Positions 5,273 through 62,974 of a DNA stretch of 64,000 nt are shown one piece after another (position 1 is the stretch's first letter; the number at the start of each line of letters is the position of its first letter). The position numbers and the translations under genes are program-made. Below the pieces are notes generated by a model. The model was not told the DNA's origin. It ran no database searches and worked only from the letters and a program-made list of their open reading frames with translations. The stretch lies in the sequence record OR885871. One strand, given 5' to 3'. Source of the DNA: Escherichia phage vB_EcoM_JN03.

Positions 5273-5290
5273 CCATTTATTGAAGAACTA

Positions 5291-5713
5291 TTAGTCTTCC
5301 GAACCTACAACCCCACCACGCAGATCCTGTGCTGGCTTACCATCAGGTGCCATGACATAGATGGTATTGATGGTCTCAAACCAAGACAATAAATCAACTC
5401 CTTCAGTGTATAGCGTTACCGGAACAGAAGTTTTGATTTCTTTCTGTTCATCCTTCAAATCCGGATGACTTCCCGATAGGGTTAACCAAGCGAATCTTCC
5501 GTTGGGATAAATAATGCCTTCTTTGAACATTACAATCTTTTTGCGAGGATTATTGGCTTCGCCCAGACACACCACCAAATGATGTATCATTTCGGGGCGC
5601 GTCAACAACGTGTCATCTTTGATAATGCCCTGCTTGACAGCAGAGATTACCACTTCATCCAGTAACGCCTGTTGCTGTTCCAGCGTCAGAGATTCGGTTA
5701 GTTTCACGCTCAT
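5291..5713 (-). CDS. hypothetical protein (140 aa)
   Basis: ORF in minus-strand gene array. Confidence 0.45.
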   Translation of the reverse strand: MSVKLTESLTLEQQQALLDEVVISAVKQGIIKDDTLLTRPEMIHHLVVCLGEANNPRKKIVMFKEGIIYPNGRFAWLTLSGSHPDLKDEQKEIKTSVPVTLYTEGVDLLSWFETINTIYVMAPDGKPAQDLRGGVVGSED

Positions 5714-5717
5714 GATA

Positions 5718-5915
5718 TCAGCCTTTTAAGTTAAGAATTTCACCAAGGACAGCGTGCAAATGCTTTGCAGATTCAATGTCCAACAGAATGGTGTCATAAA
5801 GACGCCCGTTGTCGTCACTCCCAACCTGCTTTATCACCACTCCCCTGGGGTCTAAGCTCACCAAAGTTTCCTTGGCAGGCGTCGTGTACACAGAGCTAAA
5901 TTTATCAGTGGGCAT
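5718..5915 (-). CDS. hypothetical protein (65 aa)
   Basis: Short ORF tightly packed between neighbours. Confidence 0.3.
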   Translation of the reverse strand: MPTDKFSSVYTTPAKETLVSLDPRGVVIKQVGSDDNGRLYDTILLDIESAKHLHAVLGEILNLKG

Positions 5916-5964
5916 AACAGAACCTTACTCGGTTTGGTTAGCTCCAGTTGGAGCTAACTGTGAA

Positions 5965-6534
5965 TTAGCCTTTGAAGTTAATCGGAGTCTGGACACCAGA
6001 GTCAAATGCGGCCTGGGTGCGGGTGTCACTCACCACCTGACATGTCTTGTCAAGATCGATACGCGGATATCCAAAGATTCCTGCTATCAGAGAACCAGGG
6101 AACTGGCCAAGTTTAGTTTCATAGATCGCACATGCGTCCAATTTTTTAGTTTGGCTAATGCGGAATTCATCCCGACCTGAGCTGATAACAACCTGAATCT
6201 CTTTGTACAAAGATGAATCAAACTGAATATTCTGTTCCTGAATCCATTGCATTACTGCTTTAGAACCGTCTGCGCCATAACGGCCTTGGAAAGTATCTTT
6301 GATCACTTCCTTCAAACCGTTTTTGTACATGTCAGGAATCTGCGCCGTCTCCTGAACTTTGAGCGTGTAGTTGCTCAGGTGGTTTTCAGAATCTTTGTTG
6401 AACTTTTTGACCTGTTGTTCAATGCGGTTGAAGTCATTGAAATAGCTAACCACACTACCAATCCCAATTACAGCAAATGCTAGAATCGCCAACCCAACAA
6501 TCCAACCAATTGAAATACCTTTACGTTGTGACAT
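5965..6534 (-). CDS. LemA-family-like membrane protein
   Basis: N-terminal transmembrane helix; C-terminal segment FPGSLIAGIFGYPRIDL resembles the conserved LemA C-terminal motif (FPsNiaAglFGf). Confidence 0.45.
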   Translation of the reverse strand: MSQRKGISIGWIVGLAILAFAVIGIGSVVSYFNDFNRIEQQVKKFNKDSENHLSNYTLKVQETAQIPDMYKNGLKEVIKDTFQGRYGADGSKAVMQWIQEQNIQFDSSLYKEIQVVISSGRDEFRISQTKKLDACAIYETKLGQFPGSLIAGIFGYPRIDLDKTCQVVSDTRTQAAFDSGVQTPINFKG

Positions 6535-6549
6535 CTTTACTTCCTCTTG

Positions 6550-7659
6550 TTAAAACAAACGTTTATAAGTTCGACCATTGTACTGCATGCGGCCTAATAT
6601 GAAAACTGCGGTAAAAGGGATACATCCAAACAGCACGACGATAATCACTTCCCAAGTTTTAAGATCTCGCCATTTCAGATATTCCATTTCCTTCATCTCA
6701 ACTCGGTTGTATCCCTTACTGATATTGACCGCAACTTCTTGAAACACGGATATGCCCATTGGTTTCCCTGTCAATGAAAGTCCGTTACGAGAATGGAGTT
6801 CCATGTTGTTCATGCCGTCGGCAAATGACGTAGACTTACCCCAATTAATTTTCATATCCTTTGAAATATCGGTGACTACAATAACATCGTTCTTTTTACC
6901 GCCAGACCATGCATATAGAAGTCCCTGAAAATATTCAACAGGCTGGCCAGAAGTCACAACCCAAACGATATTAACCTGACGTGAAGCACCTAATGTTTTC
7001 AGAGTATTGTTCAGATAATCATTCCAGTAATCAACAGGAATGTCCATCCCTGACATATTCAGAACACGAGTTACTCGGTAATAATCATACACCCTCGGAT
7101 ATGAAGGGATATGCTCTTTGAACTTCTCGGCGAATTGCTGGTCAGATTTAGAGAATAATGAATCTTTGTTGCCCAGCACATAATTCATATATGAATGTTC
7201 ACGTGCCGCAGGTTCCCCGATTTTAACTTGTGCCCAACGCGGAGGCTCTGTAGTACCCTGACGATCAATACGGTCAATGCTCAGATCACCGACGGTTGTT
7301 AATACGTCCCAATCAACGTCATAAGAGTGCTCATAGCATGTGCTGCAATGACGCGTTTGTGTACAAGATCGGTTATTTCCTGAACCAGAGCAAGATGTTG
7401 TGTAATAACACATACATTCATAAGAATGTTCACAACCCACCTTATTCCGTTGCTTATCAGTTACATATCCATTCAGGATTTCCACGTCCCCAGAACTACC
7501 AAGGGAGAAAGCAGCATATAATCCCGACTGGATAAGGCAAGACAATACGATAACAATGGCCGTGGCGATCAAAGTCTCCTTTGGCTCATGGGTCTTGCGG
7601 TGATATATTATAAACAAGATGGCCAAAATTACAGGAACCACAAACAGAAGGTAAATCAT
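6550..7659 (-). CDS. Cys-rich membrane protein (two N-terminal and one C-terminal predicted TM helices)
   Basis: Hydrophobic N- and C-termini; cysteine cluster CEHSYECMCYYTTSCSGSGNNRSCTQTRHCSTCYEH. Confidence 0.5.
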   Translation of the reverse strand: MIYLLFVVPVILAILFIIYHRKTHEPKETLIATAIVIVLSCLIQSGLYAAFSLGSSGDVEILNGYVTDKQRNKVGCEHSYECMCYYTTSCSGSGNNRSCTQTRHCSTCYEHSYDVDWDVLTTVGDLSIDRIDRQGTTEPPRWAQVKIGEPAAREHSYMNYVLGNKDSLFSKSDQQFAEKFKEHIPSYPRVYDYYRVTRVLNMSGMDIPVDYWNDYLNNTLKTLGASRQVNIVWVVTSGQPVEYFQGLLYAWSGGKKNDVIVVTDISKDMKINWGKSTSFADGMNNMELHSRNGLSLTGKPMGISVFQEVAVNISKGYNRVEMKEMEYLKWRDLKTWEVIIVVLFGCIPFTAVFILGRMQYNGRTYKRLF

Positions 7660-61628: not shown

Positions 61629-61839
61629 GATATATCTGGATAAGAACTATTTGGAATCTAAAATCGAAGTTTTCACGGCTCAAAAAATATTTGAAGACGG
61701 TGAAACGAGATATTATCTGAATCCAGACCTTTATCTCCCAGGAAGTAATTTGAATCGCGACATATCCCAAATAGATGGCACAATCATTCGTTGGGAAATA
61801 GCGACGCAAGAAGACAACTGTCACAACATAACACTTTGA
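61606..61839 (+). CDS. hypothetical protein (77 aa), start uncertain
   Basis: GGGGGTGGG RBS before ATGATG. Confidence 0.3.
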   Translation: MMPTLIRKIYLDKNYLESKIEVFTAQKIFEDGETRYYLNPDLYLPGSNLNRDISQIDGTIIRWEIATQEDNCHNITL

Positions 61840-61854
61840 AGAGAGAACTACATC

Positions 61855-62301
61855 ATGTCTAAACAAAATTATATCTTTATTAGTCCAGGACGTTCCCAGT
61901 TTTTTCGTAGCGACATCGATACACCTATCGAAGGTTTTCGCATTTTCAAATGCTATAAATTGGCCAGCGGTGACATTGATTATCAAAGTCACGACAATGA
62001 CCGCCAAGACTTGGTTGATAACGGTTGGGAAGAAATAGATTCTCCTCAATATCTGACCGTCAACCTTTATTATATGAAGGAAAGCGGTAAATATTATTCG
62101 ACTGGGGAGTTGAAAATCCGAGTTTCAGAAGCCCAATCCAATCCAGCAAAAAGTTGGTATGACACGCAAGAGTTAGTGCGTGATCTCCTGAAGAAAGGCG
62201 AACTGCCTGGCTTGGTTAAAGGTTCCCGTTTTGATACCTTCATGTCCTGCGAACAACACCCGTGCTATGTTCCGACTTTATTTAAAATCAGCAACATGTG
62301 A
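61855..62301 (+). CDS. hypothetical protein (148 aa)
   Basis: ORF. Confidence 0.5.
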   Translation: MSKQNYIFISPGRSQFFRSDIDTPIEGFRIFKCYKLASGDIDYQSHDNDRQDLVDNGWEEIDSPQYLTVNLYYMKESGKYYSTGELKIRVSEAQSNPAKSWYDTQELVRDLLKKGELPGLVKGSRFDTFMSCEQHPCYVPTLFKISNM

Positions 62302-62312
62302 GAGATTAATAT

Positions 62313-62687
62313 ATGAGCAATTTACCACTGCTTCAAGTCGGCGATGTGTTCGTTCTCACAGAAGAAATGACCATTGAAACTCAGGTGCCTAAGCATTTCT
62401 TGTATTCTAATTGCAAGGGAGATTGGCAAACGGACTCTGGTTATATCACCCCTGAGGGATTCTTCGGTTACATGCAAGGGCATTATGTCGTTACCAAAAC
62501 AGCTCTACAAGGAGGTAGCGCTGGTCACGACCCATACCCAGACGGTCATCATGTTTGGGCACAGCATACCGAAAATGAACGCATCAGGATCTGTTTTTAT
62601 CAGACAGGCAGCTTCAGAAACATGCACCGTAACGTTCCAGTAGTCGGAAAAGCCAAGGCGCAAACATGGACTTGGGAGAAATTATGA
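62313..62687 (+). CDS. hypothetical protein (124 aa)
   Basis: ORF. Confidence 0.5.
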   Translation: MSNLPLLQVGDVFVLTEEMTIETQVPKHFLYSNCKGDWQTDSGYITPEGFFGYMQGHYVVTKTALQGGSAGHDPYPDGHHVWAQHTENERIRICFYQTGSFRNMHRNVPVVGKAKAQTWTWEKL

Positions 62688-62920
62688 GAATCAAAAAGAT
62701 TGGAGCAAGCCCGTTGACGGGCACTATCTTCCAAGGTACATTGAATACCAAAACCAGTATGTGGGTAGGTGAGAAGACCGACGTGACTAACGACTGTGTA
62801 GCGGCTACGGCTGAACACATGCGCCACATCAAGAAAGACTACTGCTTCCCTACTAAAGACGGCAAGTTCCTGGTGCTGAGCGCTGAGGTTCACGACACTC
62901 TTCCTGATCGCTTCAAATAA
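62684..62920 (+). CDS. hypothetical protein (78 aa)
   Basis: Start ATG overlaps upstream stop. Confidence 0.45.
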   Translation: MRIKKIGASPLTGTIFQGTLNTKTSMWVGEKTDVTNDCVAATAEHMRHIKKDYCFPTKDGKFLVLSAEVHDTLPDRFK

Positions 62921-62938
62921 ATTTAAAATTTATTCAAT

Positions 62939-62974
62939 AAACGGGGTTTACTTCTTCAATAAACCCCGTATACT
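62939..62974 (+). promoter_or_regulatory. sigma70-like early promoter (TTTACT-16 nt-TATACT) overlapping a 10-bp hairpin
   Basis: ACGGGGTTTA / TAAACCCCGT inverted repeat; -35 and -10 spacing 16 nt. Confidence 0.45.

What the first reader, a model, noticed from the sequence alone, without database searches (positions are those of the whole stretch)
5276..62941. Recurring TTTATT(G/C)AA(TAAA) motif immediately after stop codons on both strands
The motif occurs at about 5276, 8517, 12936, 16853, 26408 and 62929. Three copies are full 13-bp palindromes (TTTATTSAATAAA). On the minus-strand sites it reads CTTCAATAAA and is followed by a G-rich hairpin, the same CTTCTTCAATAA string that forms the spacer of the early promoters. 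It may be a protein-binding site (a dyad suggests a dimer) or a component of terminator and promoter junctions.
Basis: seen in the sequence. Interest (0 to 1): 0.45.

Follow-up and report, generated by a model that had tools for sequence, protein, structure and literature searches.

The report
Known Ackermannviridae promoter box, rediscovered
The recurring TTTATTGAA/TTCAATAAA word is real and strongly non-random, but it is the upstream box of the promoter-like motif TTCAAT-N14-TATAAT already described for ViI-like (Ackermannviridae) phages, squeezed between genes and often overlapping a terminator hairpin.

Summary
The window is a Kuttervirus (ViI/CBA120-like) phage. TTTATTSAA occurs 20 times against 2.8 expected, and 14 hits lie in the 10.5% of the window that is non-coding (0.3 expected). 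The three 13-bp palindromes are present.

Read in the direction of transcription, the word is TTCAATAA(A). At 5276, 8517 and 12936, and at the unlisted 27047, 21505 and 61003, it lies exactly 14 bp upstream of a TATAAT-like hexamer that ends 29-41 nt before the next start codon. That is seven N14 elements against 0.35 expected. A 98%-identical complete genome and more distant relatives show the same sharp N14 peak, with box and -10 invariant while spacers diverge.

The literature already lists this motif as one of "two unique regulatory motifs" of these phages (PMC7283392). The G-rich hairpins are sense-strand terminators or stabilisers that carry the -10 in their loop.

The palindromes at 16853 and 62929 are second copies of the word, upstream of T4-like TTTACT-N16-TATACT early promoters. 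Their left arm is not conserved, so the dyad idea fails.

What reads a box at -30 is unknown: there is no canonical -35 and no MotA/AsiA homologue. No experimental mapping of these promoters was found in the library searched.

The parts
5259..5284 (-). TTCAAT-N14-TATTAT promoter-like element. Box TTCAATAAA = 5276-5284, -10 TATTAT = 5259-5264. The next ATG is at 5228, 30 nt after the -10.
   Evidence: box and -10 invariant in 16 distinct relatives
5241..5274 (-). Hairpin 5247-5274 (12 pairs, two of them G-U) plus T-run 5241-5246. This is an intrinsic terminator for the upstream gene, and the -10 hexamer sits at its apex.
   Evidence: (-18.6 kcal/mol, z -4.3)
8500..8525 (-). TTCAAT-N14-TATTAT element. 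Box = 8517-8525, -10 = 8500-8505, ATG at 8463.
   Evidence: In relatives the spacer changes by a compensated indel (aaaggggaatgggt vs aaagggaatgggct) that keeps N14.
8478..8519 (-). Hairpin 8484-8519 (16 pairs) plus T-run. This is an intrinsic terminator with the -10 in its loop.
   Evidence: (-26.5 kcal/mol, z -7.2)
12919..12944 (-). Perfect TTCAAT-N14-TATAAT, starting directly after the TGA of the DNA polymerase gene. Box = 12936-12944. The -10 (12919-12924) is exactly the 6-nt loop of hairpin 12912-12931. ATG at 12883.
   Evidence: Retained in relatives with 86-87% identical polymerase, and in L025 where a different upstream gene abuts it.
27030..27055 (-). Perfect TTCAAT-N14-TATAAT. Box = 27047-27055, ATG at 26993. 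It has no significant hairpin.
   Evidence: (z -0.15)
21488..21513 (-). TTCAAT-N14-TAAAAT, with the -10 in the loop of a hairpin. ATG at 21446.
   Evidence: (z -3.5)
23845..23870 (-). TTCAAT-N14-TATGAT directly after tRNA-Met and a CTAAATA late-promoter-like site. Ambiguous, because the TATGAT overlaps the start codon annotated in the relative.
3636..3662 (-). rIIA promoter-like element TTCTAT-N15-TATCAT, directly preceded by terminator hairpin 3663-3683.
   Evidence: In other genera the box is TTCAATTGA, the spacer is unrelated in sequence, and N15 and TATCAT/TATTAT are kept.
20693..20720 (-). TTCTAT-N16-TATGAT variant, with the -10 inside hairpin 20674-20713.
   Evidence: (z -5.7)
61003..61028 (+). 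TTCAATAA-N12-TACGAT (N14 geometry, weak -10), 29 nt before the ATG at 61058.
   Evidence: (SenASZ3 23318)
16853..16894 (+). T4-type early promoter TTTACT-N16-TATACT (16867-16894). It has a second copy of the word in the spacer (TTCAATAA 16875-16882) and the 13-bp palindrome TTTATTGAATAAA (16853-16865) one base upstream of the -35, in the UP-element position.
62929..62974 (+). Early promoter TTTACT-N16-TATACT (62947-62974) with TTCAATAAA in the spacer (62955-62963). The palindrome TTTATTCAATAAA (62929-62941) lies 5 nt upstream of the -35. Hairpin 62941-62969 encloses the -35.
   Evidence: (z -4.5). The core is conserved as far as a 152,427-bp contig, the length reported for LIMEstone1; the left palindrome arm is not.
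26393..26420 (-). Palindrome (26408-26420) 3 nt after a stop codon. Read as TTCAAT-N12-TAAAGT it is a possible weak member of the class, 27 nt before a small gene. Unresolved.
   Evidence: SenASZ3 56976 and its look-alike at 151582; no significant fold
61377..61409 (+). Box TTCAATAAA followed by a 10-bp-stem hairpin but no -10 hexamer. It looks like an orphan or degraded cassette in a variable region.
   Evidence: found only in five identical sequences among the MCP-linked relatives

Best explanation
The motif is not an element in its own right.

**What it is.** Read in the direction of transcription it is TTCAATAA(A), the upstream box of the promoter-like signature TTCAAT-N14-TATAAT of ViI-like (Ackermannviridae) phages. 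The box occupies about -32 to -24. A sigma70-type -10 hexamer follows after exactly 11 more bases, and the start codon lies about 29-41 nt beyond that. Each element fills a ~60-nt gap between two co-directional early/replication-type genes, so the box begins within 0-19 nt of the preceding stop codon.

**The hairpins.** In about half the cases the same gap must also hold the hairpin that ends or stabilises the upstream transcript. The G-rich 5' arm then lies between box and -10, and the -10 ends up in the loop. This makes a compact terminator-plus-promoter cassette: attenuate, then re-initiate.

**The palindromes.** The phage's T4-like early promoters (TTTACT-N16/17-TATAMT) use the same word twice more. 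One copy sits in the spacer. The other, in either orientation and sometimes palindromic, sits 1-15 nt upstream of the -35, where an UP element would be.

**Shown here:** enrichment, fixed spacing, position, orientation, conservation, and the absence of a canonical -35.

**Inferred:** that these are active promoters; that host sigma70 holoenzyme reads the -10; and that the box is read either by an unidentified phage factor, in the manner of the T4 MotA box at -30, or weakly by the polymerase itself.
For: 1. Identity of the phage: 98% identical to Kuttervirus genomes.

2. Spacing. In the window, TTCWAT followed by a -10-like hexamer gives 7 hits at N14, against 0-3 at every other spacing from 6 to 23. 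Shuffles give a mean of 0.35 and a maximum of 3 in 200. In the complete genome of SenASZ3, N14 has 13 hits (10 with TTCAAT) against a background of 0-5 per spacing. TTTACW peaks separately at N16-17.

3. Position. The N13-15 elements are almost all intergenic and co-oriented with the downstream gene, and most end 28-42 nt before its start codon. The genes served include rIIA, DNA ligase, NrdA, PRPP synthetase and an Alt-like ADP-ribosylase.

4. Conservation. In relatives with 86-87% identical DNA polymerase, and in MCP-linked relatives at 79-85%, TTCAATAA and the -10 are invariant while spacers and flanks diverge or are unrelated. N14/N15 is kept, once through a compensating indel.

5. The distance to the hairpin stem varies (0, 1, 5 nt) while the distance to the -10 is fixed, and several members have no hairpin.

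6. The hairpins contain G-U pairs on the sense strand only, so they are RNA structures of the co-directional transcript.

7. [quoted passage not shown]

8. The second of those motifs, CTAAATA, sits 25-45 nt upstream of the late structural genes of this window. The late promoter is therefore a different sequence.
Against: - No transcription start sites, reporter assays or in vitro transcription data were found for any Ackermannviridae phage in the library searched. 'Promoter' therefore rests on sequence logic alone.
- A 14-bp gap is too short for sigma70 region 4 to read TTCAAT as a -35. At the canonical 16-18 bp registers the match to TTGACA is at or near background: 1.5-2.25 of 6 against 1.58. 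How the box acts is unexplained.
- No MotA/AsiA homologue was found (Kutter 2011, PMC3184105).
- The same word lies at three different distances from a -10 (N8, N14, N25-30), which a single recognition mode does not easily explain.
- Three sites remain unresolved. 23845 overlaps an annotated start codon, 26408 has only a weak -10 at N12, and 61377 has no -10.
Confidence: 0.85

Rival explanations
1. The word is part of the terminators. It would be the A-tract upstream of the stem, which on the opposite strand supplies the T-run (TTTATT) of a bidirectional intrinsic terminator.
For: At 5276 and 8517 the AAA of the box abuts the stem and can pair with the downstream U-run. The scan also calls plus-strand terminator-like sites that use TTTATT as the tail, for example 12912-12931.
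Against: - The box-to-stem distance varies (0, 1, 5 nt) while box-to-(-10) is fixed at N14.
- Members at 27030, in SenASZ3 (56342, 106044, 9729) and in distant relatives have no such hairpin.
- An A-tract does not explain the invariant TTCAAT.
- Nothing needs terminating on the opposite strand inside these co-directional gene blocks.
Confidence: 0.07
2. The 13-bp palindrome is the functional unit: an operator for a dimeric phage or host DNA-binding protein.
For: There are three perfect 13-mers against 0 expected. Two of them lie just upstream of the -35 of early promoters. In the rIIA promoter of other genera the box is a perfect 10-bp palindrome, TTCAATTGAA.
Against: - The left arm is not conserved in orthologues of 62929.
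- Most copies are not palindromic.
- The two kinds of palindrome have different centres of symmetry.
- In distant relatives the upstream copy is simply inverted (TTTATTGAA), not dyadic.
Confidence: 0.08
3. The copies upstream of the TTTACT promoters are ordinary UP elements (alpha-CTD contacts), and the spacer copies are merely AT-rich spacers favoured in strong phage early promoters. On this view the shared word reflects common descent or recombination of cassettes, not a shared reader.
For: - AAAATTTATTCAATAAA matches the UP consensus (AAAWWTWTTTTNNAAAA, recalled from memory) at most positions and lies at about -53 to -37.
- Orientation does not matter.
- T4/PST early promoters have the same TTTACW-N17-TAYWAT core with an AT-rich upstream region (PMC4122927).
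- A tandem duplication of TTTACTTCAATAAAAC in SenASZ3 shows that slippage occurs.
Against: The exact word, rather than mere AT-richness, recurs in 7 of 9 early-promoter spacers and upstream of 7 of 9 early promoters. It is kept as far as the contig with LIMEstone1's reported length.
Confidence: 0.4
4. The box is a nucleation site for a host nucleoid protein. TCAATAAAT resembles the H-NS high-affinity motif TCGATAAATT.
For: Only an 8-of-9 resemblance recalled from memory, plus the presence of phage HU-like and histone-like genes in the relative's annotation.
Against: The fixed register to a -10 hexamer and the strict strand orientation are not expected of H-NS sites. Nothing was tested.
Confidence: 0.03

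Closest known systems
Viunalikevirus/Ackermannviridae regulatory motif TTCAAT[N14]TATAAT. It is listed with CTAAATAcCcc as the 'two unique regulatory motifs' in PMC7283392. From memory, it originates in Adriaenssens et al. 2012, Arch Virol 157:2035, which was not readable here.
   Same: Same hexamers, same 14-nt gap, same phage family. Two perfect copies (12919-12944, 27030-27055) and five near-perfect ones lie in this window. The partner motif CTAAATA is also present, upstream of the late genes.
   Different: Nothing essential. Details added here:
- The box extends to TTCAATAA(A).
- N15/N16 and TTCTAT variants exist.
- The -10 often sits in a terminator loop.
- The word recurs in the spacer and upstream region of TTTACT early promoters.
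T4 MotA-dependent middle promoters (MotA box (a/t)(a/t)(a/t)TGCTTtA centred at -30, 11-13 bp upstream of a sigma70 -10; sigma appropriation by AsiA and MotA)
   Same: - A conserved 8-9 bp box ends 11 bp before TAnnnT.
- There is no canonical -35.
- The elements serve nucleotide-metabolism, replication and rII genes.
- They coexist with a separate TTTACW-N17 early class and a gp55-type late class.
   Different: The box sequence is unrelated. No MotA or AsiA homologue was detected (PMC3184105). Timing and factor dependence have not been tested.
PeSL/PmSL composite terminator-promoter cassettes of T4-like phages (PMC2839356, PMC4122927)
   Same: - Short intergenic cassettes combine a stem-loop terminator with an early- or middle-type promoter.
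- There is an AT-rich stretch upstream.
- The early consensus is TTTACW-N17-TAYWAT.
- Cassettes sit at boundaries of gene replacement: two alternative genes follow the 5276 cassette, and the sequence switches right after the box in L011.
   Different: In PeSLs the stem-loop lies just upstream of the promoter, as at the rIIA element here. At 5276, 8517, 12936 and 21488 the stem-loop overlaps the promoter and holds the -10 in its loop. Mini-circle formation and recombination were not tested.
E. coli UP element
   Same: This applies to the palindromic copies only. They are A/T tracts at about -37 to -53 of strong early promoters, and orientation does not matter.
   Different: A specific word is conserved rather than general A/T tracts, and its offset from the -35 varies (1-15 nt).

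Membership tests
Ackermannviridae TTCAAT[N14]TATAAT motif | TTCAAT hexamer | tested here: met
   Exact at 5279-5284, 8520-8525, 12939-12944, 21508-21513, 23865-23870, 27050-27055 and 61003-61008. TTCTAT at 3657-3662 and 20715-20720.
Ackermannviridae TTCAAT[N14]TATAAT motif | 14-nt gap to a TATAAT hexamer | tested here: met
   Seven N14 hits against 0.35 expected. Two have a perfect TATAAT, the others TATTAT, TATGAT or TAAAAT. Not met by the palindromic copies at 16853 and 62929; 26408 has N12 and a weak hexamer.
Ackermannviridae TTCAAT[N14]TATAAT motif | Host genome is a ViI-like phage that also carries CTAAATAcCcc | tested here: met
   98% identical to Kuttervirus genomes. Nine plus-strand CTAAATA sites lie 25-45 nt upstream of late genes, and two further minus-strand ones precede genes at 18948 and 19433.
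Canonical sigma70 promoter | -35 hexamer resembling TTGACA 16-18 bp upstream of the -10 | tested here: not met
   For the N14 class, matches to TTGACA at registers 16-18 are 1.5-2.25 of 6, against a background of 1.58. The feature is met by the separate TTTACT-N16 promoters at 16867 and 62947.
T4 MotA-type middle promoter | Box centred near -30, 11-13 bp upstream of TAnnnT | tested here: met
   TTCAATAAA ends 11 bp before the -10.
T4 MotA-type middle promoter | MotA box sequence TGCTTtA | tested here: not met
   The box consensus is T..TTCAATAA.
T4 MotA-type middle promoter | Phage encodes MotA and AsiA | tested here: not met
Pfam gave no such domains in 8 candidate regulators. Kutter 2011 reports none. 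An analogue without sequence similarity is not excluded.
T4 MotA-type middle promoter | Activity appears after early protein synthesis and depends on the activator | not testable with these tools
   No transcriptome or start-site data were found.
PeSL/PmSL cassette | Stem-loop terminator joined to an early/middle promoter in one short intergenic unit | tested here: met
   Hairpins with z from -3.1 to -7.2 overlap or abut the elements at 3636, 5259, 8500, 12919, 20693, 21488 and 62947. The arrangement differs: here the -10 is in the loop.
PeSL/PmSL cassette | Association with gene replacement or indels between close relatives | tested here: inconclusive
   Three examples were seen: two alternative downstream genes after the 5276 cassette, divergence right after the box in L011, and an early-promoter cassette inserted after the MCP terminator in L165. 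No systematic test was made.
Intrinsic terminator | GC-rich hairpin followed by a U-run | tested here: met
   Met at 5241-5274 and 8478-8519. The U-run is weak at 12912-12931 and 21455-21519, and absent at 20674-20713 and 62941-62969.

The most novel reading that the evidence does not exclude
TTCAATAA(A) is the recognition site of an unidentified Ackermannviridae protein that redirects host RNA polymerase. At about 20 promoters per genome the box sits at -30 with no -35, and there the protein would act like T4 MotA (sigma appropriation without a MotA/AsiA homologue). At the TTTACT early promoters the same word sits in the spacer and just upstream of the -35, in either orientation and often about 22 bp apart. 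There the same protein would occlude the promoter and shut early transcription off. One factor would then drive the early-to-middle switch that Kutter et al. (2011) said could not be explained in these phages.
Probability: 0.15. Interest if true: 0.6.

Novelty: already known. Interest (0 to 1): 0.22.

Why it matters
On its own the finding matters little. It rediscovers half of a family-signature motif that genome papers on these phages already list. It does confirm from raw sequence that the signature is real, strictly spaced and conserved across genera.

Two points remain of value. First, these phages are used for biocontrol and for reporter-phage engineering, so knowing where their promoters and terminators lie, and that the two overlap, helps when inserting or tuning genes. 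Second, the geometry is unusual: a box at -30 with no -35 and no MotA/AsiA. This points to an uncharacterised way of recruiting host RNA polymerase, and it can be tested directly with start-site mapping and a DNA pull-down.

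Tried and rejected
1. **Late promoter.** I asked whether the word was the gp55-type late promoter. It is not: the late genes of the window carry ACTAAATA(C/T)C 25-45 nt upstream of their start codons.
2. **Canonical -35.** Treating TTCAAT as an ordinary -35 fails on spacing (N14) and on the match to TTGACA at registers 16-18.
3. **Sigma32 heat-shock promoter.** I considered a sigma32-like promoter (TTGAAA-N13-15-CCCCAT, recalled from memory). It is rejected because the -10 is TATAAT-like and is preceded by G, not C.
5. **Candidate reader of the box.** Pfam on eight annotated regulator or DNA-binding proteins of the relative found HU, a zinc ribbon and DUFs, but no MotA or AsiA. 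tblastn with T4 MotA/AsiA found nothing.
6. **Rfam.** Only the four tRNAs were found in the window.
7. **Literature.** No transcriptome or start-site study of an Ackermannviridae phage turned up. The 2012 'Viunalikevirus' paper that presumably defined the motif is not held.
8. **DNA cruciform.** A cruciform reading of the hairpins is unlikely, because the G-U pairs work only in sense-strand RNA.

Full report
**1. What the window is**

The window is 98% identical to Salmonella/Escherichia Kuttervirus genomes (Ackermannviridae; ViI/CBA120-like). I used the annotated relative SenASZ3 (NC_049439) to name genes.
- Positions 1-27000 carry mostly minus-strand early and replication genes (rIIA, DNA polymerase) and a tRNA cluster.
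- Positions 27300-62900 carry plus-strand late structural genes.

**2. The observation**

All six coordinates and the three 13-bp palindromes are correct.

| Measure | Observed | Expected from shuffles |
|---|---|---|
| TTTATTSAA, whole window, both strands | 20 | mean 2.8, max 8 |
| Same word, non-coding segments only (10.5% of window) | 14 | mean 0.30, max 2 of 500 |

Non-coding sequence is no more AT-rich than the window as a whole. In the complete SenASZ3 genome, 17 of 25 TTCAATAAA copies lie in the 8% that is intergenic, and 14 of those read in the direction of the flanking genes.

**3. What it is**

Printing each site in the direction of its genes shows TTCAATAAA followed, at a fixed distance, by a TATAAT-like hexamer.

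| Sequence searched | Hits at N14 | Other spacings | Shuffle control |
|---|---|---|---|
| Window (TTCWAT to a -10-like hexamer) | 7 | 0-3 each | mean 0.35, max 3 of 200 |
| SenASZ3 genome | 13 (10 with TTCAAT) | 0-5 each | not run |

TTTACW has its own peak at N16-17. The N13-15 elements have four properties in common:
- They are almost all intergenic.
- They are co-oriented with the next gene.
- Most end 28-42 nt before its start codon.
- They often begin at or just after the previous stop codon.

The genes they precede include rIIA, DNA ligase, NrdA, PRPP synthetase and an Alt-like ADP-ribosylase. The consensus is T..TTCAATAA-N12-TATaAT.

Window members:
- 5259-5284, 8500-8525, 12919-12944 (perfect), 21488-21513 and 27030-27055 (perfect), all on the minus strand.
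- 61003-61028, plus strand.
- An N15 form before rIIA (3636-3662) and an N16 form (20693-20720).
- 23845-23870 fits the pattern, but its hexamer overlaps an annotated start codon.
- 41566-41591 is probably a chance overlap with a late promoter.

**4. Conservation**

Loci around the DNA polymerase gene (18 contigs; polymerase 86-100% identical) and around the major capsid gene (capsid identity down to 79-85%, and a 152,427-bp contig matching the length reported for LIMEstone1) show the same elements.
- Box and -10 are invariant, while the 3' end of the upstream gene, the spacer and the 5' UTR vary.
- At the rIIA element the spacers of four lineages are unrelated in sequence, yet N15 and both hexamers persist.
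- At 8517 a one-base deletion in the spacer is compensated by an insertion, which keeps N14.
- More distant relatives have TTCAATAA-N12-TATAAT in front of other genes, with unrelated spacers and often no hairpin.

**5. It is already described**

[quoted passage not shown] From memory, the motifs come from the 2012 'Viunalikevirus' genus proposal, whose abstract mentions conserved regulatory sequences. That paper is not held.

The second motif is also present here. ACTAAATA(C/T)C lies 25-45 nt upstream of the baseplate, tail-spike, neck, terminase/sheath, portal and head genes. It is evidently the gp55-type late promoter. Earlier papers had reported that early and late signals of these phages were unidentified (PMC3184105).

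**6. The hairpins**

| Site | Fold z-score | U-run after the stem |
|---|---|---|
| 5276 | -4.3 | yes |
| 8517 | -7.2 | yes |
| 12936 | -3.1 | weak |
| 21488 | -3.5 | weak |
| 20693 | -5.7 | none |
| 62929 | -4.5 | none |
| 27030, 16850, 26365 | not significant | not assessed |

Three features stand out.
- The stems contain G-U pairs that work only in the sense RNA, so these are terminators or 3' stabilisers of the upstream transcript rather than DNA cruciforms.
- At 12936 the TATAAT is exactly the six-base loop.
- The distance from box to stem varies (0, 1, 5 nt) while the distance from box to -10 is fixed. This separates the promoter reading from the terminator-A-tract reading.

The result is a compact terminator-plus-promoter cassette. 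It resembles the PeSL/PmSL cassettes of T4-like phages (PMC4122927), except that here the stem-loop overlaps the promoter. As with PeSLs, cassettes lie at mosaic boundaries:
- Two alternative genes follow the 5276 cassette in different relatives.
- In L011 the sequence switches right after the box.
- In L165 an early-promoter cassette is inserted after the capsid-gene terminator.

**7. The palindromes**

16853 and 62929 are not N14 elements. They lie 1 and 5 nt upstream of the -35 of TTTACT-N16-TATACT promoters (16867-16894, 62947-62974), which match the T4/PST early consensus TTTACW-N17-TAYWAT. Those promoters also carry TTCAATAA in their spacer.

By inspection, 7 of 9 such promoters in SenASZ3 have the word or a close variant in the spacer, and 7 of 9 have a copy upstream. 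In orthologues of 62929 the core TTCAATAAACGGGGTTTACTTCTTCAATAAACCCCGTATACT is kept, but the left arm of the palindrome is not. In more distant relatives the upstream copy is simply inverted (TTTATTGAA).

The dyad is therefore not the conserved unit. An UP-element role, or a second site for whatever reads the word, both remain possible. Site 26408 (and its look-alike in SenASZ3 before an HU-like gene) reads as TTCAAT-N12/13 with a weak TAAAGT or TAAGCT hexamer, and stays unresolved.

**8. Mechanism**

Shown here:
- A strictly spaced, conserved, gene-proximal box plus a -10.
- No canonical -35. At registers 16-18 the match to TTGACA is 1.5-2.25 of 6, against a background of 1.58.
- No extended -10 (by inspection).

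Inferred: host sigma70 holoenzyme reads the -10, and the box at -32 to -24 is read by something else. This is the geometry of T4 MotA-dependent middle promoters.

No MotA or AsiA homologue was found (PMC3184105), and no expression data turned up in the library. I cannot say whether the class is early or middle, or whether a phage factor is needed.

**9. Verdict**

The element is a known family signature, and the details added here are small. The recognition mechanism is the only open question of real interest.

Noticed in passing
window 27310, 31172, 34572, 36630, 41590, 48106, 52356, 57139, 58357 (+); 19460, 18981, 23880 (-): ACTAAATA(C/T)C lies 25-45 nt upstream of nearly every late structural gene or operon. 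It matches the published CTAAATAcCcc motif and is evidently the gp55-type late promoter. Weaker variants (ACTAATTA, ACTAAGTA) precede the tube, portal and capsid genes.
   Followed up: partly
window 5228-5246, compared with L008-L023: Downstream of the 5276 cassette, relatives carry one of two unrelated genes (ATGTCT... as in the window, or ATGACA...). The switch occurs right after the hairpin. In L011 the sequence diverges immediately after the TTCAATAAA box of the 23862 site. Cassettes therefore mark mosaic boundaries, as PeSLs do.
   Followed up: partly
window 3654-3662; L014, L016, L018, L025: The rIIA promoter box is TTCTATTGA here but TTCAATTGAA, a perfect 10-bp palindrome, in the other genera.
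   Followed up: no
window 34530-34611 and 36588-36657: The ~70 nt upstream of two adjacent tail-spike genes are near-identical copies: terminator, then cctttgttcataaattttattagttcagACTAAATACCCCatattgg. This suggests duplication or exchange of the regulatory leader between tail-spike modules.
   Followed up: no
window 22280-26423: About 4 kb holds only four tRNA genes (Ser, Gln, Asn, Met) and a few short ORFs. The relative's RefSeq annotation leaves 2.4 kb and 1.4 kb stretches here unannotated.
   Followed up: no
window 61377-61409: TTCAATAAA is followed by a 10-bp-stem hairpin but no -10 hexamer. This stretch is found only in five identical sequences among the capsid-linked relatives, so it may be a degraded cassette in a variable region.
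   Followed up: partly
SenASZ3 109411-109527 (outside the window): A tandem duplication of the 16-mer TTTACTTCAATAAAAC lies in an early promoter. It is direct evidence that slippage or recombination multiplies the word.
   Followed up: no
window 54359-54817: A free-standing GIY-YIG homing endonuclease gene (by the relative's annotation) sits between the tail sheath and tail tube genes.
   Followed up: no
L165 about 7340-7430: In one relative a complete early-promoter cassette (TTTATTGAA-N4-TTTACT-TCTTCAATAA-N7-TATACT) is inserted directly after the major capsid gene terminator. The window has different sequence at that position.
   Followed up: no
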